This document shows, piece after piece, positions 860 to 54,406 of a stretch of DNA of 64,000 nt. Every line of letters begins with the position of its first letter. Within the stretch, counting starts at the first letter, position 1. Below the pieces are notes generated by a model. That model was not told the origin of the DNA and ran no database searches. It saw nothing but the letters and a program-made list of their open reading frames with translations. The stretch comes from Escherichia phage NRG-P0074: sequence record PQ480333.1. One strand, written 5' to 3'. A program made the position numbers and the translations under genes.

Positions 860-900
860 GTTTACACACAAAAAGCGTCGTGTTACTATAGACCTATCAA
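860..900 (+). promoter_or_regulatory. Early-type promoter (GTTTAC -35, TACTAT -10) followed by the recurrent tgttactatagacctatc motif
   Basis: gtttac at 860-865; tactat about 18 bp downstream; same cassette motif recurs at about 42238, 49283 and 50761. Confidence 0.5.
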
Positions 901-43282: not shown

Positions 43283-43626
43283 CCAAAATGTTGGCTTTAA
43301 TAGTTGGCTTGGTTTCATTTAACGCTCTTGCTAATACAACATATACTGATGTAACGGAGTATACAAACAGAACGGCGTCTGATTATTGTGGTAAAAGTCA
43401 AGAGTGTAAAGTAGATTTTTCACAAAAATTGTTATATGCGTATAAAGACGGAGAAAAAGATGGGGCGTCTAGTAGGTTCAAGGCGTCTACCTTAATTAAA
43501 AGATACTATAAAAAATGGCAAATATTAGAATGCTCTGTGGCGGAACCTAAAGATAAGGCAGCATGCAATTCTATGGTGGACCGTCTAGTTGACTCTTATA
43601 CTAGAGGACTTGCAGCAAGTGATTAA
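43279..43626 (+). CDS. Secreted protein (115 aa; possibly T4 vs-like)
   Basis: Signal peptide MTKMLALIVGLVSFNALA; 115 aa equals T4 Vs length; identity not verified. Confidence 0.4.
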   Translation: MTKMLALIVGLVSFNALANTTYTDVTEYTNRTASDYCGKSQECKVDFSQKLLYAYKDGEKDGASSRFKASTLIKRYYKKWQILECSVAEPKDKAACNSMVDRLVDSYTRGLAASD

Positions 43627-44083
43627 AAACTATATCAAGGGCGATATTGTCGCCCTGTTTTCTAAAGGTAATAATATTGCTCATGGGTGTAATTGTTTTC
43701 ATACAATGGGCGCTGGTGTGGCAGGACAATTAGCAAAGGCTTATCCAAAAATTCTGGAAGCCGATAAACTTCAAACCGAATTCGGAGACAAGTCTAAACT
43801 CGGGACTTATTCGGTTTATGAAAAATATTTTAAGACCCATAAAGCTTATTGCTTTAATCTTTATACACAGTTTGAGCCGGGACCTAATTTTGAGTACTCT
43901 GCTTTAATGAATTGTATAATAGAATTAAATGAATTCGGAAAGAATAAGATAATAAAGCCTGTAATTTATATGCCTAGAATTGGTGCAGGTATTGGTGGTG
44001 GAAACTGGGATATCATCGAAGAGATTTTAGATACGTATTCCACTAAACTAGAAATTGTGATTGTTGATTGGGAACCTAAATGA
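43589..44083 (+). CDS. Macro-domain protein, TARG1/DarG-like (ADP-ribose-removing hydrolase family)
   Basis: KGDIVALF...IAHGCNCFHTMGAGVAGQLAKAYP and PRIGAGIGGGNWDIIEEIL resemble remembered TARG1 motifs (KGDLFAC...LAHCISEDCRMGAGIA, PRIGCGLDRLQW); start codon uncertain (TTG 43589 or GTG 43619). Confidence 0.65.
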   Translation: MTLILEDLQQVIKNYIKGDIVALFSKGNNIAHGCNCFHTMGAGVAGQLAKAYPKILEADKLQTEFGDKSKLGTYSVYEKYFKTHKAYCFNLYTQFEPGPNFEYSALMNCIIELNEFGKNKIIKPVIYMPRIGAGIGGGNWDIIEEILDTYSTKLEIVIVDWEPK

Positions 44084-46708: not shown

Positions 46709-47185
46709 ATGATTATCAATGAAAACTCTTGGCACTTTAAAATTTATGCCGCGTTCAATAGTACATGGAATCGTCCGAAAACGTTATGTGCTTATTTTTG
46801 GAAAACGTTTCTCCCGGTATTGGCTGCTTCAATTATTGGATTTGCGATTTTAGCAGCAGTCACAATCATTGGCCAGGAAATTTTAACTAAATTCTTTGTT
46901 TTTAGCAGTCTATGGACATTAGTTCTGGCTTCAATTGGTGTAGGCATTTTAATGGTAGCAGTCATGGCTTTTATTGCTACCGGGTTGGTAATTGGTCCGT
47001 CTTGGTTGTTAGACAAATATAACGACAGAAAATATTATAAAGAAATTGAGCTCATTGCACAAAACCAAGAACGAATTAAAAATGGACTTGAGCCTATTGA
47101 ACGTAAGAAATCGATTATCGTTGAATTTTTAAAAGCTCGTAAAGCTAAAGTGTGTCCTACTCTTGAATACAAGCCAGGCAAATGA
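46709..47185 (+). CDS. Membrane protein (158 aa)
   Basis: Two to three hydrophobic helices (LAASIIGFAILAAVTIIG, LVLASIGVGILMVAVMAFIATGLVIG). Confidence 0.5.
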   Translation: MIINENSWHFKIYAAFNSTWNRPKTLCAYFWKTFLPVLAASIIGFAILAAVTIIGQEILTKFFVFSSLWTLVLASIGVGILMVAVMAFIATGLVIGPSWLLDKYNDRKYYKEIELIAQNQERIKNGLEPIERKKSIIVEFLKARKAKVCPTLEYKPGK

Positions 47186-47964
47186 ATTATATCAAATGTT
47201 ATGATGCAATAATTCAACGAGGAAAACTTAGAGGCAGTGATAAGTCTGAGTTGAATTATTATACTGAATCCCATCACATAATCCCTTCATGTATTGGAGG
47301 GAGTGATGACCCGAGTAATAAAGTTTTATTGACTGCCAGGGAACATTTTATCGCTCATTGGTTATTATCAAAAATTCACCCAAACTCTGAAGGATTGATT
47401 TACGCTTACTGGGCGTTCTATAATTTAGGCGAAGATGCTTTAGGACGAAATCTTAAATTAACCTCAAGAGGCTATAAAGACGTAAGGGAAAAGTTTTCAG
47501 AAATTCACTCTAATAGAATGAAAGATATATGGGAATCACAAGAATATCGTGATAAGCGTTCAGCGACCATGAGCCTCCCTGAGATAAAGGCTAAAATGTC
47601 AGATTCTCAAATAGAGGCACAGAATAGACCTGAAGTTAAAGCAAAAATATCTACTGCTATCAAAGAGGCCTTTAAGAGAGATGATGTTAAAGAACGGCAT
47701 TCAAGAGCTGTTAAAAAGGCCCTAGATAATCCAGAAACTAAAAAGAGACAGTCTGAAGCGTCTAAAGCTAGACAACGAACTGGTAAACACTGGGAAGATT
47801 ATGATATGCTTTACGAACTTTGGATTAAATTGAATCGACCTAAGCGTGGGGCTTTCGGAACCTATATTAGTAAAATGGGTTATCCTAAATCAAATTACCA
47901 ACGCTTAATATTACAGTTCATTGAAGATTATGAAAGGAAAGTGAATAATGAAAACGATTGTTAA
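47182..47964 (+). CDS. HNH homing endonuclease (Mob-like)
   Basis: HNH motif ESHHIIPSCIGGSDDPSNKVLLTAREHFIAH; C-terminal basic repeats. Confidence 0.75.
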   Translation: MNYIKCYDAIIQRGKLRGSDKSELNYYTESHHIIPSCIGGSDDPSNKVLLTAREHFIAHWLLSKIHPNSEGLIYAYWAFYNLGEDALGRNLKLTSRGYKDVREKFSEIHSNRMKDIWESQEYRDKRSATMSLPEIKAKMSDSQIEAQNRPEVKAKISTAIKEAFKRDDVKERHSRAVKKALDNPETKKRQSEASKARQRTGKHWEDYDMLYELWIKLNRPKRGAFGTYISKMGYPKSNYQRLILQFIEDYERKVNNENDC

Positions 47965-48934
47965 GGCTTACTTTGGTAGCCACCTTTATGGAACGTCTAC
48001 TCCTGAATCTGACGTCGATTTTAAAGAAATTTATGTCCCTCATGCTCGTGATATTTTGACCGGTAACGTTAAAGAACATATGAGCAAGAACACGAATAAC
48101 ACATCTTCTAAGAACACAAAAGACGACGTGGACCATGAGTTATATAGTCTCAAATATTTCTTTAAACTAGCTGCAGATGGTGAAACTGTCGCATTAGATA
48201 TGCTTCACACTCCACCAAGTCTAGTAGTTAAATCTGATTTGCCTGATGTATGGAAGTATATTCAAGATAACAGGTCTCGTTTCTATACCACTAACATGAA
48301 ATCTTATTTAGGGTATGTCCGTAAGCAAGCTTCTAAATACGGTGTCAAGGGTTCTCGACTGGCTGTTCTTCGTCAAGCCCTTAAACGTTCTAATGAATGG
48401 GGACAATACTTTGATAATGGTGCAGTAATTCGTTTATCACATATGAAGAATGTTCTGCCTGTAGGTGAATTTGCTTCATGGGTTGAAACCGAAAACGAGA
48501 AAACAGGTAAGCAAACATTCTATAATCTGTTAGACCGTAAATTCCAAGACACGTTAACCAATAAAGAGTTCAATGCCGTCCTGGTTAAACTTGAAGAGAA
48601 CTATGGTGAACGTGCTCGTAAGGCAGAAGCCAACGAAGGTATTGACTGGAAAGCATTGAGTCATGCATGTCGTGGTGGACTTCAACTATTGGAAATTTAC
48701 AAAACCGGCGACCTGGTTTACCCGCTTCAGGATGCTCCATTTATTCTCGATGTTAAGCTTGGTAAACATACGTTTAAAACCGTACAGGAATTCCTAGAAG
48801 ATATCGTTGACCAAGTTGAACATGCAGCAGAACAAGCTGCTAAGAACGGTATGCAACAAAAAGTAGATATGAGTTTCTGGGATGACTTCCTTGAACAAGT
48901 CTACTTAGAAAACCACAATTCGTACTATAAATGA
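47948..48934 (+). CDS. Pol-beta-superfamily nucleotidyltransferase (328 aa)
   Basis: Classic motif FGSHLYGTSTPESDVDF (GS-x10-DxD). Confidence 0.6.
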   Translation: MKTIVKAYFGSHLYGTSTPESDVDFKEIYVPHARDILTGNVKEHMSKNTNNTSSKNTKDDVDHELYSLKYFFKLAADGETVALDMLHTPPSLVVKSDLPDVWKYIQDNRSRFYTTNMKSYLGYVRKQASKYGVKGSRLAVLRQALKRSNEWGQYFDNGAVIRLSHMKNVLPVGEFASWVETENEKTGKQTFYNLLDRKFQDTLTNKEFNAVLVKLEENYGERARKAEANEGIDWKALSHACRGGLQLLEIYKTGDLVYPLQDAPFILDVKLGKHTFKTVQEFLEDIVDQVEHAAEQAAKNGMQQKVDMSFWDDFLEQVYLENHNSYYK

Positions 48935-48937
48935 TAA

Positions 48938-48954
48938 GGGCCTTCGGGCCCTTT
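48938..48954 (+). terminator. Terminator-like hairpin
   Basis: gggcc-ttcg-ggccc followed by TTT. Confidence 0.45.
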
Positions 48955-48982
48955 AGGGGGTCAAAATATTTTTAAAAAGTAG

Positions 48983-49018
48983 TGTACATGCTTTTAGGAT
49001 ATGTTATTATAGACCTAT
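48983..49018 (+). promoter_or_regulatory. Early promoter (GTGTAC -35 variant) with tgttattatagacctatc motif
   Basis: Motif shared with the cassettes at 881 and 49283. Confidence 0.45.
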
Positions 49019-49040
49019 CAAAACAAGAGGAGAAAACAAA

Positions 49041-49259
49041 ATGAAAACCAAAATGTTAGAAATGATTCGTGAAGCTGGTGATAAAGGTCTTATGGTTAAC
49101 ACTCGTGATGCAGACCAACGTCAAGCATTCGGTGAACTGAAAGCTAAAGGTCTAGTTAAAGCATCCTTAGGAATCGGTAATGCATTACGAGTCACCTTAA
49201 CCCCAGCCGGTAAAGCAGTGTTCTTTCAACCTCTTACCAAAAAATCTCGTCGCAAATAA
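49041..49259 (+). CDS. Hypothetical small basic protein (72 aa)
   Basis: Ribosome-binding site GAGGAG. Confidence 0.45.
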   Translation: MKTKMLEMIREAGDKGLMVNTRDADQRQAFGELKAKGLVKASLGIGNALRVTLTPAGKAVFFQPLTKKSRRK

Positions 49260-49261
49260 TT

Positions 49262-49299
49262 GTTTACTTTTGCTTTAAACATGTTATTATAGACCTATC
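49262..49299 (+). promoter_or_regulatory. Early promoter with an overlapping MotA-box-like TGCTTTA
   Basis: gtttac 49262-49267; tgcttta 49271-49277; tgttattatagacctatc. Confidence 0.45.
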
Positions 49300-49329
49300 G
49301 AAACGAAATGAGTAAATTTGGAGAATAAA

Positions 49330-50310
49330 ATGTTCAACGTTCAAATCAAAAAAGGTATCTATCGTAATAACGAAATCTCTGGTTCTTATGTTGCCACAAA
49401 GACATGGTTCCCGGCAAAGCTTAATCCTGAATGTTCCCACTTAGGTGACGGTAAAATTTTCGTTATGATTGATGGTTCTGAACGTGGAGTATGGGTCTTC
49501 AAACCAGACATCGTAATGGAAGGAGTTGAGACATCACCAGTTGCAGTTGTTGAAAGCACTGAAGATATGAAAACTCGTATCAACAAACGCTTTAAAGTAA
49601 TGAACATGATGACGAATGGTATTATCGATGGCAAAATTCGTTCACTCATTATTTCAGGTGCAGCCGGTATTGGTAAGACGTATTCTCTGGATAAAGCACT
49701 TAATAATGCTAATGATAATGGTTTCATCAAATACAAAAGCATTAATGGTAAAATCTCTGGTATTGGCCTTTACGAACAACTTTGGCTCAACCGTGATGCA
49801 TACAGCGTTCTCTTAATCGACGACGTTGATGTATTCTCAGATATGGACATCTTGAACCTTCTTAAAGCAGCATTAGATACCGGAGATAAACGCAAAGTTT
49901 GTTGGAGCACTGCGTCATCTTATCTCGATGATAAGGGTATTGATAAAGAATTTGAGTTTGAAGGTACTATCGTTTTCATTACAAACGTTGATATCGATAA
50001 AGAGTTAGAACGCGGTTCGAAACTTGCTCCGCACCTTCAAGCTTTAGTATCTCGTTCAGTGTATTTGGACCTTGGAGTACACTCTAATGAAGAGATTATG
50101 GTTCGAGTTGAAGATGTAATATTATCTACTGACATGATGCAGAAACGTGGCCTGACGGATGCAGAAACGTATAAAGCATTGTCCTGGATGAAGGCTAACG
50201 TATCTCGTCTTCGCAATGTATCATTACGTACGGCTCTTTATGTAGCAGATTTTATTTCAACTGATAAAGATGGTTGGGAGGAAATCTCTGAAGTAACTTT
50301 ACTGAAATAA
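49330..50310 (+). CDS. AAA+ family ATPase (327 aa)
   Basis: Walker A GAAGIGKT and Walker B LLIDDVD; ATG 49330 preferred over the TTG in the track. Confidence 0.6.
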   Translation: MFNVQIKKGIYRNNEISGSYVATKTWFPAKLNPECSHLGDGKIFVMIDGSERGVWVFKPDIVMEGVETSPVAVVESTEDMKTRINKRFKVMNMMTNGIIDGKIRSLIISGAAGIGKTYSLDKALNNANDNGFIKYKSINGKISGIGLYEQLWLNRDAYSVLLIDDVDVFSDMDILNLLKAALDTGDKRKVCWSTASSYLDDKGIDKEFEFEGTIVFITNVDIDKELERGSKLAPHLQALVSRSVYLDLGVHSNEEIMVRVEDVILSTDMMQKRGLTDAETYKALSWMKANVSRLRNVSLRTALYVADFISTDKDGWEEISEVTLLK

Positions 50311-50738: not shown

Positions 50739-50774
50739 GTTTACACAGGTCTATGGACATGTTACTATAGACCT
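50739..50774 (+). promoter_or_regulatory. PeSL-like early promoter
   Basis: gtttac; arms aggtctat / atagacct around gttactat. Confidence 0.5.
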
Positions 50775-50795
50775 ATCAACTACTAGAGGTAAAAC

Positions 50796-51382: not shown

Positions 51383-52378
51383 ATGAGCATTACATCTGAT
51401 GCGGTAAAACATGAAATTAACGGTTTATGTGCTTCACAGATTAAAGTGTGGTTTAAAGACCATAATGATCGCAGAGCACTTAATTATGAACAAATTGCTA
51501 TCCAAGTTCATCAATTACTGGTTAGTAAATTTGATTTTCATATGCCGTCTGAAATCTATACTAATCTACCGCGAGCGCTTATTAAAGCATGTAAAGGTTA
51601 CGGAAAATCAATGGCCGATGGAATCTTCAGCGCGCTGAATAAACTTAACGTTCTGTCGATGATTAACTCTAACAATATCCTGCGTAATTTAGGACGTACT
51701 GATTTGTTCGGTCGTGAACAGGGTAAAATGCCTTTGAAATGGATTGTTGCTCATCTTAACGAGAACCAAACACGTTTTCTGGCCGTATCAGCACGTTTAC
51801 AAATGGGCTTAGATCGTCAGATGAACTTTAAAACTCATCCACGTTATTCAGGTTCAACAGACTTTTATAAATGTGAGCTTCAAAAGGTCAGTGGCAAAAC
51901 CGTCTTAGTAGTTCGTGTAACGTTTGAAGGACGACGTCAAGGATATTTTAACCTAATCGGCTCTGGTCTTAAACATTGTGGATTTATCGACGAAGTTGAT
52001 ATCAAGCGAGACGGCACTGGATATCGTATTGGATATGTTTGTACTCTTAAAGAAGAGATTTTAGGACCAGCTCCAGGACTAAAAGACGTTAGATATAAAG
52101 ACGAGCTCGTTGAAGAAATAAAAGAAGTTGAATATGATATCAACCAAGAAGATGCTCTTAAAGACCTTATTGATGAACTGAATCAAGACGTTATTCCGGT
52201 TCAGAAATTTGAATCAAAACATGCTGAGCAAATCAAATACTTTGAAGCTTTGATTAACGAACTTAATGTAACTATTCAACAGACTGACGATGAAATCTCA
52301 CGATTAGCAGGCTTAAACGGTAAAAATAAAACAGAACGAGCTAATCTTATTCAAGTAGTAAAACTTCTTAAGGAATGA
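51383..52378 (+). CDS. Hypothetical protein (331 aa) with C-terminal coiled coil
   Basis: First of three tandem similarly sized ORFs; C-terminal heptad-like region. Confidence 0.5.
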   Translation: MSITSDAVKHEINGLCASQIKVWFKDHNDRRALNYEQIAIQVHQLLVSKFDFHMPSEIYTNLPRALIKACKGYGKSMADGIFSALNKLNVLSMINSNNILRNLGRTDLFGREQGKMPLKWIVAHLNENQTRFLAVSARLQMGLDRQMNFKTHPRYSGSTDFYKCELQKVSGKTVLVVRVTFEGRRQGYFNLIGSGLKHCGFIDEVDIKRDGTGYRIGYVCTLKEEILGPAPGLKDVRYKDELVEEIKEVEYDINQEDALKDLIDELNQDVIPVQKFESKHAEQIKYFEALINELNVTIQQTDDEISRLAGLNGKNKTERANLIQVVKLLKE

Positions 52379-52408
52379 TGTACAACCAAGGATGGTTGGA
52401 GTATAATA
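52378..52408 (+). promoter_or_regulatory. Early promoter cassette caaccaaggatggttggagtataat (copy 1)
   Basis: Inverted repeat caacca / tggttg followed by gaGTATAAT. Confidence 0.5.
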
Positions 52409-52433
52409 AATTTTTCAACATGAGGAATATAAA

Positions 52434-53393
52434 ATGGCTTTTATTACACGTAGAGAACTTATCAAAGAATTTACCTCGAACGCATATACTCCAGGACCTA
52501 ATCCTATCCGTATGCCTGTAAAGACTCCTGAAGAGATTGAGGAAATCTGTTCATATTATGGGATTACTTCTCGTAAGTTTACTCAATTTGAATGCGTTAC
52601 TAACACACCCGTTAAAGAGTTCATTAAAAATGGTGAGTTCAGCCGTTTATTAGCCAAACAGAAACTTCGTAATTTTTGTATTGGTGGTGAAGGACAATAT
52701 TTCGCTAAGCAGTTCCGGAATAACCTTAACAATCTGATGGCCATTGCTTCTCGTATTCGTCCTCAAGCAATTAACATGAAACATTTGAAATATACTTACG
52801 ATAAGTTAGAAATCATGGTTATCAGTGAGAACGAGTTCACTCTTACGTATAAACCTAAGAATGATAACGTTGCTCGTGTATTCCACCAAGCGTTGGAAGT
52901 TTTAGGTGATAATATCCACCAGATTAAAGCAATTTATTCTCGTGAGCTTAATATTATCGACCCTATCAAGAATAAGGGCCATATCGCTATCCAGGCTCGT
53001 GTATCTATTGGTAAAAAGGTTCCTGCGCCATGGTGGCACAAAGACTCTGAATACTATCAAAATCTTAAAAAGGAAAATGCATTGTTTGAAGCATCGCTTA
53101 CTGGGACCCCAATTGAACAGGCCGAAGTCCTAAGTGCTTATTCTACTTCGGGTAAATCAATGTTTAAAGGTTTGCCAAATGTGTGCAAACTGTCTGCAGT
53201 AAAACTAAATGTTTCTAATGACCTTCTTCCGGCCGAAGATTACCGTTACAATCAAATCAAGGCCACTATGGACCAACTGTCTGTTGAACTTGACAAAGCA
53301 CAAGCTAAGCTTCGTGATGCTCAAAGTGTTGTAACGAATCTCCAGTTGCAGTATTCTAAACTTTTTAACGCAATGAATGCGTTAAAATCATAA
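52434..53393 (+). CDS. Hypothetical protein (319 aa) with C-terminal coiled coil
   Basis: Ribosome-binding site GAGGAA. Confidence 0.5.
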   Translation: MAFITRRELIKEFTSNAYTPGPNPIRMPVKTPEEIEEICSYYGITSRKFTQFECVTNTPVKEFIKNGEFSRLLAKQKLRNFCIGGEGQYFAKQFRNNLNNLMAIASRIRPQAINMKHLKYTYDKLEIMVISENEFTLTYKPKNDNVARVFHQALEVLGDNIHQIKAIYSRELNIIDPIKNKGHIAIQARVSIGKKVPAPWWHKDSEYYQNLKKENALFEASLTGTPIEQAEVLSAYSTSGKSMFKGLPNVCKLSAVKLNVSNDLLPAEDYRYNQIKATMDQLSVELDKAQAKLRDAQSVVTNLQLQYSKLFNAMNALKS

Positions 53394-53397
53394 AATA

Positions 53398-53428
53398 GTT
53401 TACAACCAAGGATGGTTGGAGTATAATG
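53398..53428 (+). promoter_or_regulatory. Early promoter cassette caaccaaggatggttggagtataat (copy 2)
   Basis: About 30 bp identical to the cassette at 52381. Confidence 0.5.
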
Positions 53429-53455
53429 AATCTATCTTAACGAGAGGAAAATATT

Positions 53456-54406
53456 ATGACACGTTCACATTACATTGAATACTTTGCAGGTCTTATCGCT
53501 AACGTTCATGCCCAACGTGCTTCTGGTGCACTAGGATTTGATGTTCCACACCGAGATGTAGTAAGTGGTATTCTTCGCGATTTTGGTACATACATAGGCC
53601 AAGAAAATCATATCTGTAAAGATACTCAAAATGCGTATTCTCATTCGTTAGGGACGTTGCTTCAATGGTTCAAACGTTCTCGTTTATTATCTTCTACTGT
53701 AGCTCGCGATAACATTAAAAACTTTATGAAGCCGAGCTTTATTAAATCTGTGACATCTAAAACCGATTTGGTTGAATTCACTATTGTTAATGATGTTAAA
53801 AAGACTCATTTGGCTGATTGGTTAACTACCATTCCTGAAACTAAATTTGCTGATAAATTTGCTTGTGAATTCAATAACCAAGTGAATATGCTTTTTAAAC
53901 ATTCTCGTAAATTATTCACAGGCGGCGATGATCGTACAAATACAGTTCATGCTAAAGATTGGGTTACTGCAGTGTTCAAACCAACCGGTAATGGTACCGC
54001 ATCATTATCAATTGATATTCAGGTTCCTTATTATTACTCACGTAATCTCGGCACCATGAAAGCTGAAGAAATTAAGAAGCACAATAAAACCATTCGTTCG
54101 CTGTCTTATAAACTTCGCATGATGTTAAGAATCATGGACGTGGTAGAAATGTATGATGAAACCGAAGATAATGGTTCAATGTTATACAGTTCTCGCATTC
54201 AAATTAAGTTGAAGAACCCTAACGAGTATAAGCCTAAGCCTATTAAAGAGCCTAAAGCAGAAAAAGTTGATAACTTAAGAGAAGAACGCGAATATCTCAA
54301 ATCTCGTCTGAAAGAAGTCGAAGCCCAGATTGCAGAACAAACTAAATCGTTAAAAGCTCTGAATGCGAAAGCGGATGGTTTACGAAATGCCATTGAGGTG
54401 TTATAA
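53456..54406 (+). CDS. Hypothetical protein (316 aa) with C-terminal coiled coil
   Basis: Ribosome-binding site GAGAGGAAAA. Confidence 0.5.
   Translation: MTRSHYIEYFAGLIANVHAQRASGALGFDVPHRDVVSGILRDFGTYIGQENHICKDTQNAYSHSLGTLLQWFKRSRLLSSTVARDNIKNFMKPSFIKSVTSKTDLVEFTIVNDVKKTHLADWLTTIPETKFADKFACEFNNQVNMLFKHSRKLFTGGDDRTNTVHAKDWVTAVFKPTGNGTASLSIDIQVPYYYSRNLGTMKAEEIKKHNKTIRSLSYKLRMMLRIMDVVEMYDETEDNGSMLYSSRIQIKLKNPNEYKPKPIKEPKAEKVDNLREEREYLKSRLKEVEAQIAEQTKSLKALNAKADGLRNAIEVL

What the first reader, a model, noticed from the sequence alone, without database searches (positions are those of the whole stretch)
47182..50310. HNH endonuclease, pol-beta nucleotidyltransferase and AAA+ ATPase in one accessory block
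A free-standing HNH homing endonuclease (47182-47964) overlaps by 17 nt the start of a 328-aa protein with a textbook nucleotidyltransferase motif (GS-x10-DVD). After a terminator and a tiny basic ORF comes a 327-aa AAA+ ATPase (Walker A GAAGIGKT, Walker B LLIDDVD). Phage nucleotidyltransferases may act in tRNA end repair or nucleotide signalling interference, and AAA+ ATPases may act as remodelers or anti-defence factors, but the roles here are unknown. The abutting homing endonuclease suggests the block arrived or is maintained by endonuclease-driven mobility.
Basis: partly seen in the sequence, partly recalled or inferred. Interest (0 to 1): 0.5.

Follow-up and report, generated by a model that had tools for sequence, protein, structure and literature searches.

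The report
T4 mobD–nrdC.11–nrdC.10 genes, RB69-type phage
This stretch is the RB69-type (Mosigvirus) copy of three already named but still uncharacterised phage T4 genes: the selfish endonuclease gene mobD, a probable RNA-end-repair enzyme (nrdC.11) and an orphan AAA+ ATPase (nrdC.10). Only the endonuclease gene shows signs of having moved in.

Summary
The window comes from a Mosigvirus (RB69-like T4-type coliphage), and the region is 97-99% identical to phages a20 and BEU50.

- **HNH gene:** it is the ortholog of T4 MobD (75% aa identity). It sits in the same slot and has the same 17-nt overlap with the next gene as in T4.
- **Nucleotidyltransferase:** it is T4 NrdC.11, a divergent long-form member of Pfam RlaP (PF10127). 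Bacterial RlaP enzymes were recently shown to add 1-2 nucleotides to RNA 3'-OH ends. It is not like cGAS or a CCA-adding enzyme.
- **ATPase:** it is T4 NrdC.10, an orphan AAA+ family with no specific relative.
- **Not one block:** NrdC.11 is in about 1500 phage records and NrdC.10 in about 1300, with or without MobD. A conserved hairpin and a separate promoter lie between them. They are adjacent only in enterobacterial T4-likes.
- **MobD alone looks mobile:** it occurs in 53 records across three genera, always at this site. Only 2 of about 146 Mosigvirus-type records carry it. A patch of about 50 nt on its left is identical to a Tequatrovirus allele.

Best guess for NrdC.11 is restoration of trimmed tRNA ends ahead of phage Pnkp/Rnl1 repair. 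This is untested and has already been proposed in the literature. Novelty is low.

The parts
46709..47185 (+). Upstream flank gene: RB69 ORF104c-type membrane protein (158 aa). Its stop codon overlaps the mobD start codon (ATGA).
   Evidence: ORF; phrog_944 membrane protein at 2e-52; annotated as similar to RB69ORF104c in PhAPEC2.
47104..47175 (+). Mosaic patch next to mobD. Positions 47104-47158 are identical to Tequatrovirus a48 (98% to T2). The same stretch differs from mobD-less Mosigvirus at 14-16 sites between 47113 and 47174. It looks like a co-conversion tract or an altered target site.
   Evidence: Identity to four mobD-less Mosigvirus phages is 82-85% in the 100-bp block next to the junction (70-72% in the 40-nt patch 47109-47148) and 95-100% further upstream. 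T2 and a48 rise from 45-65% upstream to 98-100% in that 40-nt patch. This flank variant is 100% identical only in a20 and BEU50 among 587 records.
47182..47964 (+). mobD: free-standing HNH homing-endonuclease gene (260 aa).
   Evidence: 74.8% aa identity to T4 MobD and 99.6% to a20/BEU50. phrog_655 homing endonuclease at 1e-55. HNH residues are invariant in three lineages. dN/dS against T4 is 0.076. The gene is absent from PhAPEC2, F27, moha and AV109 at the same junction.
47948..48934 (+). nrdC.11: long-form RlaP-family Pol-beta nucleotidyltransferase (328 aa).
48936..48953 (+). UUCG-tetraloop hairpin after nrdC.11. It is probably a terminator or an RNA-stabilising element, though the T tract is weak here.
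   Evidence: dG -13.4. The T4 homolog has compensatory stem changes and a T6 run.
48983..49019 (+). Promoter-like element upstream of the 72-aa ORF (TGTACA, 16 nt, TATTAT, followed by AGACCTATC).
   Evidence: Consensus scan. The 19-mer ATGTTATTATAGACCTATC is exact at 49001 and 49281, with near-copies at 50759 and 880 and 0 matches expected by chance.
49041..49259 (+). Small basic ORF (72 aa), equivalent to RB69 ORF102c. It is an optional cargo gene in a variable slot.
   Evidence: phrog_6001 at 1e-42. 98.6% identity to PhAPEC2. Absent from T4. Replaced by an 88-aa ORF in a20, and both ORFs are present in F27 and moha.
49262..49299 (+). T4 early-promoter-like element for nrdC.10 (GTTTAC, 17 nt, TATTAT, then AGACCTATC), with a TTGCTTTA MotA-box-like motif in the spacer.
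   Evidence: T4 has GTTTACA...TACTATACAACTATC at the homologous position.
49330..50310 (+). nrdC.10: orphan AAA+ ATPase (326 aa). It has an N-terminal beta domain (residues 1-64), a linker, and an AAA+ core with lid (residues 77-326).
   Evidence: phrog_1250 at 1e-160. 78% aa identity to T4 NrdC.10. Walker A, Walker B, N219, R242 (within an SRS motif) and R300 are invariant in 121 sequences. AF2 model pLDDT 91. Foldseek hits ORC1, Cdc6, NSF, RuvB, Hda and RFC at 1e-5 to 1e-6. Only sub-threshold generic AAA Pfam hits.

Best explanation
The segment is the Mosigvirus counterpart of T4 mobD-nrdC.11-nrdC.10. It contains three functionally independent elements that are neighbours by lineage-specific synteny.

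1. **mobD** is a selfish, free-standing HNH homing-endonuclease gene. It has inserted precisely between the ORF104c-type membrane-protein gene and nrdC.11. It brought its own Shine-Dalgarno sequence for nrdC.11 and a short tract of donor flank. By analogy with other T4 Mob/Seg enzymes, it is inferred to cut the mobD-less allele near this junction during mixed infections and to be copied in by recombinational repair.

2. **nrdC.11** encodes a long-form RlaP nucleotidyltransferase. Its most likely activity is Mn2+-dependent, untemplated addition of one or two NMPs to the 3'-OH of broken RNAs, above all tRNAs cut and trimmed by host anticodon nucleases of the RloC type. The phage's own Pnkp and Rnl1 could then reseal a full-length anticodon loop. 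That would make it a counter-defence RNA-repair accessory.

3. **nrdC.10** encodes an orphan AAA+ ATPase transcribed from its own promoter. It has full ATP-hydrolysis motifs, including an RFC-like SRS arginine and a sensor-2 arginine. It is most likely an oligomeric, nucleic-acid-associated loader or remodeller. Its substrate is unknown.

**What is shown:** gene identities, motifs, folds, distributions and the mosaic junction. **What is inferred:** every biochemical activity.
For: **Gene identity**
- The region is 96.5-96.8% identical over 95% of its length to phages a20 and BEU50, both Mosigvirus.
- T4 has the same gene order and the same 17-nt mobD/nrdC.11 overlap. PhAPEC2 notes name NrdC.11 and NrdC.10.

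**MobD**
- Only 53 phage records carry it at E<1e-60, in T4-type Tequatrovirus, Gaprivervirus VR26 and relatives (E33, TH40), and two Mosigvirus. It is directly upstream of nrdC.11 in all three genera examined in detail.
- NrdC.11 alleles at 95% identity or more occur in 146 records.
- The HNH residues are invariant and dN/dS is 0.076.
- The insertion is exact relative to four mobD-less relatives.
- The left flank is mosaic and Tequatrovirus-like.

**NrdC.11**
- It scores above the Pfam RlaP gathering score and its catalytic residues are invariant.
- Bacterial RlaP adds 1-2 NMPs to RNA 3'-OH, prefers cleaved-tRNA mimics, and partly restores aminoacylation of a tRNA lacking one nucleotide. That paper places T4 NrdC.11 in the family (PMC12776372).
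- Aravind's group predicted the same role in phages, with a distribution that mirrors RNA ligases (PMC7824862).
- RloC excises the wobble nucleotide (PMC2610378).
- Distant members of the NrdC.11 clade sit next to RNA-end enzymes:
  - HD or metallophosphatase genes lie immediately downstream.
  - Seven of the 23 most distant viral loci have an HD, Pnkp-like, Rnl1 or metallophosphatase neighbour.
  - RtcB lies within 5 kb in 6 of 57 cellular loci, and a Pnkp-like kinase in 2.
- Rnl1 is present in Mosigvirus phages that carry this NrdC.11. Genus-level record counts for Rnl1 and NrdC.11 are almost identical.

**NrdC.10**
- Motif conservation, a confident AAA+ model and AAA+ fold hits.
- It has its own promoter-like element, which is conserved in T4.
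Against: - No activity has been measured for MobD, NrdC.11 or NrdC.10. A review lists MobD's activity as 'ND' and its target as unknown (PMC2988022).
- NrdC.11 matches only the N-terminal 130 residues of the RlaP model. A profile-profile comparison with canonical RlaP aligns only 33 columns. In 15 of 57 bacterial loci a canonical RlaP lies immediately downstream of the NrdC.11-like gene. This suggests the two forms are not redundant, so transferring PfRlaP biochemistry to NrdC.11 is uncertain.
- No RNA ligase, Pnkp or tRNA gene lies near nrdC.11 in the window.
- The co-occurrence of Rnl1 and NrdC.11 across phages may only reflect shared ancestry.
- nrdC.11-mobD.3 can be deleted from T4 in the laboratory (PMC9825161). 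That fits an accessory role but gives no phenotype.
- mobD here is as diverged from T4 mobD as the neighbouring genes are, so no recent transfer event is documented.
- The right-flank polymorphism is not exclusive to mobD-positive phages.
- NrdC.10's neighbours in distant phages are heterogeneous.
Confidence: 0.6

Rival explanations
1. The nucleotidyltransferase and the AAA+ ATPase form one two-component module, for example an ATPase that delivers or remodels the NTase's substrate.
For: The two genes are adjacent and on the same strand in 33 of 40 viral loci whose RlaP is at least 60% identical to the query. The same order is seen in T4 and in a more distant T4-like contig, L107.
Against: - A conserved hairpin and a separate promoter-like element lie between them.
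- One or two unrelated small ORFs come and go in the gap.
- VR26 and several other T4-likes have nrdC.11 without nrdC.10 within 5 kb.
- None of the 40 more distant viral loci has them adjacent.
- NrdC.10 homologs in Vibrio phages D504 and VH7D, Aeromonas phage phiA8-29 and Klebsiella phage RaK2 have no RlaP within 6 kb.
- NrdC.10 is absent from all 57 cellular RlaP loci.
Confidence: 0.1
2. NrdC.11 is not an RNA-repair enzyme. Instead it nucleotidylates a protein or small molecule, in the manner of MNT or kanamycin nucleotidyltransferase. For example, it might AMPylate and neutralise a host HEPN ribonuclease toxin.
Against: - The NCBIfam MntA hit is insignificant (E 0.058, 13 bits against a cut-off of 60).
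- The N-terminal domain passes the RlaP threshold.
- Bacterial RlaP labelled RNA but not proteins or DNA (PMC12776372).
- Neighbours of clade members are RNA-end enzymes, not HEPN toxins.
Confidence: 0.1
3. NrdC.11 synthesises an oligonucleotide or nucleotide signal that interferes with host immunity. One possibility is a HalB-like oligo-dA product that keeps a Hailong-type channel closed.
Against: - The similarity is at the level of the minimal NTase fold. The TM-scores are low: 0.24-0.27 normalised to the query and 0.34-0.38 to HalB.
- There are no PADLOC hits.
- There are no cGAS/CD-NTase hits in either fold search.
- The family neighbourhoods point to RNA end repair.
Confidence: 0.05
4. 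mobD here is a resident or domesticated gene that is no longer mobile. On this reading it was inherited vertically and lost from most Mosigvirus phages, and the flanking differences are ordinary polymorphism.
For: - mobD diverges from T4 mobD about as much as nrdC.11, nrdC.10 and tk diverge from their T4 counterparts (dN 0.18 against 0.13-0.18).
- Endonuclease activity has never been shown.
- The right-flank allele also occurs in mobD-less AV109.
Against: - Only 2 of about 146 Mosigvirus-type records carry it.
- The same site is occupied in three genera.
- The catalytic residues are intact and under strong purifying selection.
- The 55-nt left flank is identical to a Tequatrovirus allele, while the rest of that gene is 98-100% Mosigvirus and only 45-65% Tequatrovirus. 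This is hard to explain without recombination at the junction.
Confidence: 0.2

Closest known systems
Phage T4 MobD (free-standing HNH homing endonuclease, Mob family; the characterised relative is MobE)
   Same: 75% aa identity, and the same length to within 1 residue. It has the same insertion site directly upstream of nrdC.11 and the same 17-nt overlap. The HNH residues are invariant.
   Different: Here it lies in a Mosigvirus backbone behind an ORF104c-type membrane-protein gene that T4 lacks. It is about 25% diverged, so it did not come recently from T4 itself. As with T4 MobD, activity and target site are undetermined.
Phage T4 NrdC.11 / RlaP family (PF10127; characterised members are Pseudomonas fluorescens and P. 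aeruginosa RlaP)
   Same: It is the ortholog of T4 NrdC.11 (79-80% aa identity). Its N-terminal Pol-beta NTase domain passes the RlaP gathering score, and the GS...DxD...D residues are conserved. It has an NTase domain plus a helical C-terminal domain. T4 NrdC.11 is listed as RlaP cluster 5 in PMC12776372.
   Different: It is about 70 residues longer than canonical RlaP. The C-terminal 190 residues are not alignable to canonical RlaP by profile comparison. A three-stranded beta insertion (residues 176-200) lies in the C-terminal part of the model, a region the RlaP profile match (residues 6-137) does not cover. The gene is not next to an RNA ligase in this genome. In bacteria this long form often sits in tandem with a canonical RlaP. 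No biochemistry exists for this clade.
Phage T4 NrdC.10 (phrog_1250), an uncharacterised AAA+ ATPase
   Same: 78% aa identity, the same length, and the same position after nrdC.11 with its own promoter.
   Different: None of substance. In this window a 72-aa ORF lies between nrdC.11 and nrdC.10, and T4 lacks it.
Initiator and clamp-loader AAA+ proteins (ORC1, Cdc6, Hda, RFC, Rad24)
   Same: It has the AAA+ fold with Walker A, Walker B, sensor 1, an SRS/SRC-like arginine and a sensor-2 arginine. These proteins are among the top Foldseek hits.
   Different: E-values are only 1e-5 to 1e-6 and TM-scores 0.2-0.45. NSF, RuvB, NtrC-type and dynein AAA modules score equally well. It has no collar or winged-helix domain, and it has a unique N-terminal beta domain. 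No Pfam family is passed.
Hailong HalB and kanamycin nucleotidyltransferase/ANT(4') (minimal NTase plus helical domain)
   Different: Identity is 8-16%. Their substrates differ (protein-primed dATP polymerisation; aminoglycosides). There is no sequence-family relationship.

Membership tests
RlaP (Pfam PF10127, RNA-ligase-associated Pol-beta NTase) | The sequence matches the family HMM above the curated gathering score. | tested here: met
   48.6 bits against a cut-off of 23, E 1.1e-12. Only residues 6-137 align, to profile positions 23-145 of 249. All 240 listed homologs carry PF10127.
RlaP (Pfam PF10127, RNA-ligase-associated Pol-beta NTase) | Pol-beta NTase catalytic signature: hG[GS], 9-13 residues, DxD, plus a third carboxylate. 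| tested here: met
   G10, S11, D22 and D24 are present, and D60/D62 lie at the start of the next strand. D84 is also conserved. These residues are invariant or nearly so in alignments of 134 and 122 sequences.
RlaP (Pfam PF10127, RNA-ligase-associated Pol-beta NTase) | Homology to canonical RlaP over the C-terminal helical (substrate-binding) domain. | tested here: not met
   hhalign of the NrdC.11-clade profile (A2) against nine canonical RlaPs (A7) aligns only 33 columns around the GS...DxD motif, at probability 4%. BLASTP shows the same. The AF2 model does have a helical C-terminal domain. The PfRlaP coordinates are not in the PDB copy searched, so a fold-level comparison was not possible.
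RlaP (Pfam PF10127, RNA-ligase-associated Pol-beta NTase) | Genomic association with RNA ligase or RNA-end-healing genes. | tested here: inconclusive
   Not adjacent in the window: there is no rnlA, pseT or tRNA gene. Rnl1 is encoded elsewhere in Mosigvirus genomes. Among distant clade members, 7 of 23 viral loci have an HD, Pnkp-like, Rnl1 or metallophosphatase neighbour, and 9 of 57 cellular loci have an RtcB, Pnkp-like or HD neighbour.
RlaP (Pfam PF10127, RNA-ligase-associated Pol-beta NTase) | Adds 1-2 NMPs to RNA 3'-OH ends. | not testable with these tools
   This has been shown only for the Pseudomonas enzymes (PMC12776372).
Free-standing HNH homing endonuclease (T4 Mob family) | HNH catalytic motif. 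| tested here: met
   H31, H32, N46, H55 and H59 are invariant in the Mosigvirus, T4 and VR26 copies. phrog_655 scores 1e-55. The Pfam HNH hit itself is below threshold (16.9 bits against 21.4).
Free-standing HNH homing endonuclease (T4 Mob family) | Sporadic presence or absence among otherwise collinear relatives, always at one insertion site. | tested here: met
   There are 53 records with MobD against 1509 with NrdC.11. The junction is precise against four mobD-less Mosigvirus phages. The same site is used in T4, VR26 and this window.
Free-standing HNH homing endonuclease (T4 Mob family) | Co-converted or diverged flanking sequence at the insertion site. | tested here: met
   The left flank 47104-47158 is identical to Tequatrovirus a48, within a gene that is otherwise 98-100% Mosigvirus. 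This variant is found only in the two other mobD-positive Mosigvirus records. The right flank is ambiguous.
Free-standing HNH homing endonuclease (T4 Mob family) | Cleaves the endonuclease-lacking allele and is inherited at super-Mendelian frequency. | not testable with these tools
   The review table lists MobD's activity as 'ND' and its target as unknown (PMC2988022).
AAA+ ATPase superfamily | Walker A, Walker B, sensor 1, arginine finger and sensor 2 within an AAA+ alpha-beta-alpha core plus helical lid. | tested here: met
   G113, G115, K116, D164, D165, N219, R242 and R300 are invariant in 121 sequences. The AF2 model has pLDDT 91. There are 142 PDB matches at E<=1e-3, and the top 50 listed are AAA+ proteins.
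Clamp-loader or initiator AAA+ clades (RFC, gp44, ORC, Cdc6, DnaA) | Specific clade membership: best reciprocal similarity plus accessory collar or winged-helix domains. | tested here: inconclusive
   ORC1, Cdc6, Hda and RFC are among the top hits, but NSF, RuvB, NtrC-type and dynein modules score similarly. The profile search of PDB sequences finds only P-loop-level hits at E>=0.01. PHROG clamp-loader hits are at 2e-4 to 1e-3. There is no extra C-terminal domain.
cGAS/DncV-like (CD-NTase) signalling enzymes and CCA-adding enzymes | Fold-level or HMM-level similarity to these NTase classes. | tested here: not met

The most novel reading that the evidence does not exclude
The NrdC.11-type 'long RlaP' is a functionally distinct enzyme and not merely a divergent copy of canonical RlaP. 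In Desulfobacterota, Nitrospirota and other bacteria it sits in tandem with a canonical RlaP, and its C-terminal domain is unrelated by sequence. It may therefore recognise a different damaged end or substrate. T4-type phages would have captured only this half as a dedicated counter-measure to nucleotide-excising anticodon nucleases. Alternatively, it may make a HalB-like oligonucleotide decoy.
Probability: 0.15. Interest if true: 0.55.

Novelty: already known. Interest (0 to 1): 0.25.

Why it matters
- **What was settled:** a candidate 'anti-defence block' turns out to be the well-known T4 mobD/nrdC.11/nrdC.10 segment, so it should not be counted as a discovery.
- **The open biology is NrdC.11:** if it restores nucleotides removed from tRNA by RloC-type nucleases, it would complete the classic T4 Pnkp/Rnl1 tRNA-repair counter-defence. 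It would also explain why RlaP tracks RNA ligases in phages. The experiment is simple, and the idea is already in the literature.
- **MobD:** the mosaic junction offers a defined pair of natural alleles (mobD-positive and mobD-negative Mosigvirus). These could be used to map the target of a T4 homing endonuclease whose activity has never been shown.
- **NrdC.10:** it remains one of the most widespread AAA+ ATPases of T4-like phages with no assigned function.

Tried and rejected
- **Sequence searches of PDB chains** with single proteins and with family profiles found nothing useful for either protein. The PfRlaP crystal structure described in PMC12776372 is not in the PDB copies searched.
- **PADLOC and NCBIfam** gave no significant hits for any of the four proteins.
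- **First homolog search:** the run with the window NTase returned only 98-100% identical sequences. I therefore re-queried with profiles of distant members to obtain diverse alignments for structure prediction.
- **hhalign between the NrdC.11 clade and canonical RlaP** essentially failed.
- **An AAA ATPase upstream of the long RlaP in locus L119:** I checked whether it could be an NrdC.10 counterpart. It is a classical PF00004 AAA protein, it occurs in only 2 of 57 loci, and tblastn with NrdC.10 detected nothing in any of the 57 cellular loci. Rejected.
- **The three ~320-aa ORFs downstream (51383-54406):** I checked whether they are paralogs of each other. No similarity was found. Rejected.
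- **The two repeated elements before the 72-aa ORF and nrdC.10:** I first read them as MotA middle promoters. Comparison with T4 shows they are better described as T4 early-promoter-type elements, one of which has a MotA-box-like motif.
- **Right-flank polymorphism at the start of nrdC.11:** I examined it as a possible MobD target or immunity allele, but it is also present in mobD-less AV109. Not decisive.
- **tRNA, rnlA and pseT genes in the window:** none found.

Full report
**1. What is there**

The ORF list confirms every coordinate in the finding.
- A 260-aa ORF lies at 47182-47964.
- A 328-aa ORF lies at 47948-48934 and overlaps the first by 17 nt.
- A 72-aa basic ORF lies at 49041-49259.
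- An AAA+ ORF ends at 50310. Its real start is ATG 49330, which has GGAG 8 nt upstream and matches the start annotated in a20 and T4. That gives 326 aa.

The quoted motifs are all present: GS-x10-DVD (G10, S11, D22-D24), Walker A GAAGIGKT and Walker B LLIDDVD. Base composition is flat across the region at 34-40% GC, so nothing marks it as compositionally foreign.

**2. Where it comes from**

Megablast against phage genomes finds 804 records sharing this region.
- The best two are Escherichia phages BEU50 and a20 (genus Mosigvirus, the RB69-like T4-type phages). They are 96.5-96.8% identical over 95% of the query.
- The next-best records cover only 84-86%, because they lack the first ORF.
- The RefSeq record of Mosigvirus PhAPEC2 labels the orthologs 'similar to NrdC.11' and 'similar to NrdC.10' of T4, and labels the small ORF as RB69ORF102c.
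- In T4 the order is mobD.1, mobD, nrdC.11, nrdC.10. The mobD stop and nrdC.11 start overlap by the same 17 nt.

The finding is therefore the Mosigvirus version of T4 mobD-nrdC.11-nrdC.10. The domain content of the two nrdC genes (AAA ATPase; COG3541 nucleotidyltransferase) was already reported in 2006 (PMC1524935).

**3. The endonuclease**

The protein is 74.8% identical to T4 MobD, 78-81% to the MobD of Gaprivervirus VR26 and relatives (E33, TH40), and 99.6% to those of a20 and BEU50.
- **Family and motif:** PHROGs places it in the homing-endonuclease family phrog_655 at 1e-55. The Pfam HNH hit is below threshold. The HNH residues H31/H32, N46, H55 and H59 are invariant in the three lineages.
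- **Selection:** against T4, dN/dS is 0.076, comparable to tk at 0.096. The protein is therefore maintained by selection.
- **Distribution:** it is sporadic. Only 53 phage records carry a MobD ortholog (E<1e-60), whereas 1509 carry NrdC.11. Of the roughly 146 records with a Mosigvirus-type NrdC.11 allele (at least 95% identity), only two have MobD.
- **Insertion site:** in all three genera the gene lies directly upstream of nrdC.11.

Alignment with four mobD-less Mosigvirus phages (PhAPEC2, F27, moha, AV109) shows a clean insertion. About 770 bp replaces 4 bp at the ATGA stop/start overlap of ORF104c and nrdC.11.

The flank gives the strongest evidence for recombination.
- In the last 60-70 nt of ORF104c the window differs from the mobD-less Mosigvirus phages at 14-16 sites. 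Upstream of that it is 95-100% identical to them.
- Positions 47104-47158 are identical to the homologous gene of Tequatrovirus a48 and 98% identical to T2. Those two are only 45-65% identical to the window further upstream.
- Among 587 records with this sequence, only a20 and BEU50 carry the same flank variant.

This is what a short co-conversion tract from a donor with a Tequatrovirus-type flank would look like. It could equally be a target site altered to escape self-cleavage.

The first 25 nt of nrdC.11 are also polymorphic. The window's allele is shared with mobD-less AV109, so that side is uninformative.

MobD's activity and target have never been determined (PMC2988022).

**4. The nucleotidyltransferase**

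Pfam assigns the protein to RlaP (PF10127, 'RNA repair pathway DNA polymerase beta family') at 48.6 bits against a cut-off of 23. Only residues 6-137 align. PHROGs gives phrog_388 'nucleotidyltransferase' at 6e-126.
- **Family size:** an exhaustive search of 1.84 billion cluster representatives finds 3243 relatives at E<=1e-3. The best 150 are mostly full-length proteins of about 320 aa at 35-56% identity.
- **Conserved residues:** in alignments of 134 and 122 sequences, G10, S11, D22, D24, D60, D62 and D84 are invariant or nearly so, as are several basic residues (K26, R137, R222, R242). The catalytic residues are therefore intact.
- **Model:** an AlphaFold2 model built on 122 diverse sequences is confident (pLDDT 89.5). 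It shows an N-terminal alpha/beta NTase domain, a largely helical C-terminal part that contains a three-stranded beta insertion (residues 176-200), and a long terminal helix.
- **Foldseek against the PDB:** only weak hits, to the NTase-like protein 3c18, to kanamycin nucleotidyltransferase/ANT(4') and to Hailong HalB.
- **Excluded classes:** no cGAS/DncV-like or CCA-adding enzyme appears. PADLOC and NCBIfam are silent.

Structurally it belongs with the 'minimal NTase plus HEPN-like helical domain' enzymes.

**5. What RlaP enzymes do**

A December 2025 preprint (PMC12776372) characterised two Pseudomonas RlaPs encoded between rtcB and rtcA.
- They label RNA, but not DNA or protein.
- They add one or two NMPs (or dNMPs) to RNA 3'-OH ends and prefer Mn2+.
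- They favour the broken anticodon-loop end of a cleaved-tRNA mimic.
- They partly restore aminoacylation of a repaired tRNA that had lost one nucleotide.

The authors place T4 NrdC.11 in the family (their cluster 5) as 'of unknown function'. Aravind's group had predicted that phage RlaPs restore nucleotides removed by nucleases such as RloC before ligation, and that their distribution mirrors RNA ligases (PMC7824862). RloC excises the wobble nucleotide, a lesion expected to frustrate the T4 Pnkp/Rnl1 repair pathway (PMC2610378).

RlaP products carry a 3'-OH. By established enzymology, that is what the 5'-phosphate ligase Rnl1 needs.

**6. Tests of that reading here**

- **(a) No repair genes nearby.** The window has no rnlA, pseT or tRNA gene. 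T4 Rnl1 homologs are present at 67% identity in Mosigvirus phages AV110, AV118 and SA35RD, which also carry a NrdC.11 at least 98% identical to the window's. Record counts per host genus for Rnl1 (1545 records) and NrdC.11 (1509 records) are nearly identical. This may be no more than shared ancestry.
- **(b) Viral neighbourhoods.** In 80 viral loci carrying an NrdC.11-like gene, the 23 most distant (below 47% identity) include 5 with an HD-domain gene immediately downstream, 2 with a Pnkp-like kinase, and 1 with Rnl1 plus a metallophosphatase. Three further metagenomic contigs have HD directly downstream, and one contig type has a metallophosphatase (Pfam confirmed). HD and metallophosphatase enzymes are the usual 3'-end 'healing' activities, and they would produce the 3'-OH that RlaP needs.
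- **(c) Cellular neighbourhoods.** In 57 cellular or MAG loci, mainly Desulfobacterota and Nitrospirota at 32-52% full-length identity, RtcB lies within 5 kb in 6, a Pnkp-like kinase in 2, and HD in 2.

These neighbourhoods support RNA-end repair for the clade.

There is a caveat. In 15 of those 57 loci a canonical short RlaP (255-271 aa, a full-length PF10127 match at 255-268 bits) lies immediately downstream of the NrdC.11-like gene. A profile-profile comparison of the two forms aligns only the 33 columns around the GS...DxD motif. The long form is therefore a distinct subfamily that coexists with the canonical one. Its exact substrate may differ.

**7. The ATPase**

PHROGs places it in phrog_1250 (unknown function) at 1e-160. 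Pfam gives only sub-threshold generic hits (AAA_22, AAA_16), both for the window protein and for 121 family members.
- **Motifs:** Walker A, Walker B (DD), a sensor-1 Asn (N219), an Arg within an 'SRS' motif reminiscent of the RFC 'SRC' box (R242), and a sensor-2 Arg (R300) are all invariant.
- **Model:** pLDDT is 91. It shows an N-terminal all-beta domain (residues 1-64), a disordered linker, and an AAA+ core plus lid. The RaK2-type homologs, at about 256 aa, lack the N-terminal domain.
- **Fold search:** Foldseek hits ORC1, Cdc6, NSF/Sec18, RuvB, Hda, RFC/Rad24, NtrC-type activators and dynein modules at 1e-5 to 1e-6. The fold is certain and the clade is not.
- **Distribution:** it occurs in 1311 phage records, including phages that are not T4-like.
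- **Neighbours in distant phages:** these vary.
  - dUTPase, clamp loader and helicases in Vibrio phage D504.
  - nrdAB-glutaredoxin and topoisomerase in VH7D.
  - denV, UvsY and UvsW in Aeromonas phage phiA8-29 and a related contig.
  - denV in RaK2.
  - DNA ligase and PARP in one contig, and RtcB with DNA ligase in another.

The loose theme is DNA metabolism and repair, but there is no consistent partner. My best guess is an oligomeric loader or remodeller that acts on nucleic acid. Confidence in this is low.

**8. Are the genes one block?**

No.
- **Transcription units:** nrdC.11 is followed by a UUCG hairpin that is conserved, with compensatory changes, in T4, where it has a T6 tail. Both the 72-aa ORF and nrdC.10 are preceded by copies of a promoter-like element. 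Its 19-mer core occurs four times in the window, against none expected by chance. It corresponds to the T4 early promoter upstream of nrdC.10.
- **A variable gap:** the space between the two genes is a variable cargo slot in Mosigvirus. The window, PhAPEC2 and AV109 have the 72-aa ORF. Phage a20 has an 88-aa ORF instead. F27 and moha have both.
- **Separable genes:** VR26 has mobD and nrdC.11 but no nrdC.10 in that stretch.
- **Adjacency is lineage-specific:** NrdC.10 lies within 5 kb of the RlaP gene in 33 of 40 loci whose RlaP is at least 60% identical. It does so in 0 of 17 loci at 47-60% identity and 0 of 23 below 47%. No RlaP lies within 6 kb of NrdC.10 in four distant phages.
- **Dispensability:** nrdC.11-mobD.3 is dispensable in T4 (PMC9825161).

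**9. Verdict**

- **Observation:** confirmed.
- **Interpretation:** partly supported. The domain calls are right, and endonuclease mobility is supported for mobD itself. The 'single mobile accessory block' and the nucleotide-signalling ideas are not supported.
- **Novelty:** these are known, named T4 genes with near-identical copies in GenBank. Their functions remain untested. The most plausible role of NrdC.11, restoring trimmed tRNA 3' ends ahead of Pnkp/Rnl1 repair, has already been proposed in the literature.
- **Possibly new, though minor:**
  - the Tequatrovirus-type mosaic patch beside mobD;
  - the HD or metallophosphatase gene downstream of NrdC.11-like genes in distant phages;
  - the tandem long-plus-canonical RlaP cassette in bacteria.

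Noticed in passing
window 880-898, 49001-49019, 49281-49299, 50759-50777 (all + strand): The 19-mer ATGTTATTATAGACCTATC occurs four times (0-2 mismatches), against 0 expected by chance. The three copies examined (49001, 49281, 50759) lie just upstream of a gene start: the 72-aa ORF, nrdC.10 and the nrdC.8-like ORF. The motif looks like the conserved -10/+1 part of T4-type early promoters. The copy at 49262-49299 also has GTTTAC at -35 and a MotA-box-like TTGCTTTA in the spacer.
   Followed up: partly
window 48935-49329; loci L001 4436-4850, L009 3685-4393, L010 3670-4364: The gap between nrdC.11 and nrdC.10 is a variable cargo slot within Mosigvirus. It holds a 72-aa ORF in the window, PhAPEC2 and AV109. 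It holds an 88-aa ORF in a20. It holds both in F27 and moha. T4 has neither. In the window, a promoter-like element precedes both the 72-aa ORF and nrdC.10.
   Followed up: partly
L119 5001-6699, L128 4908-6708, L159 4962-6765 and 12 other cellular loci (L112, L115, L127, L129, L131, L135, L140, L141, L142, L151, L157, L164): In Desulfobacterota, Nitrospirota and other bacterial MAGs or genomes, the NrdC.11-like 'long RlaP' is immediately followed by, and often overlaps, a canonical short RlaP. The short form gives a full-length PF10127 match at about 260 bits. This tandem cassette was seen in 15 of 57 cellular loci and in none of 80 viral loci.
   Followed up: partly
L021 1913-2371, L022 2479-2910, L023 7924-8325, L090, L096, L097, L102, L103, L114; L019 7960-8481: In distant phage-like contigs a small HD-domain protein (133-152 aa), or a metallophosphatase, lies directly downstream of the NrdC.11-like gene. 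This suggests a pair that heals the 3' end and then adds nucleotides.
   Followed up: partly
GenBank records listed: Many phage records label NrdC.11, NrdC.10 and other nrdC.x genes as 'thioredoxin'. NrdC.10 is sometimes labelled 'clamp loader' and a small neighbouring ORF 'helicase loader'. The 'thioredoxin' label appears to be a propagated annotation error derived from the nrdC locus name.
   Followed up: no
window 47948-47975: Codons 3-8 of nrdC.11 are unusually polymorphic among close relatives. The window, mobD-less AV109 and, in part, T4 share GTTAAG(G/T)CT. PhAPEC2, F27, T2 and a48 have ATGAAA(G/A)GC. This could relate to the MobD recognition site, but the correlation with mobD presence is imperfect.
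   Followed up: partly
window 43589-44083: An ORF upstream of tk corresponds in position to T4 tk.4, which T4 records annotate as containing an A1pp (macro-domain) phosphatase motif. PMC1524935 reports the A1pp match for 4 of 6 tk.4 orthologs. I did not test it here.
   Followed up: no
L006 5974-6744 (RaK2) and proteins P0403, P0406, P0479, P0486: A subset of NrdC.10 homologs in jumbo phages (RaK2, 121Q and G17 types) are only about 256 aa and lack the N-terminal beta domain. That domain is therefore an optional add-on to the AAA+ core.
   Followed up: no
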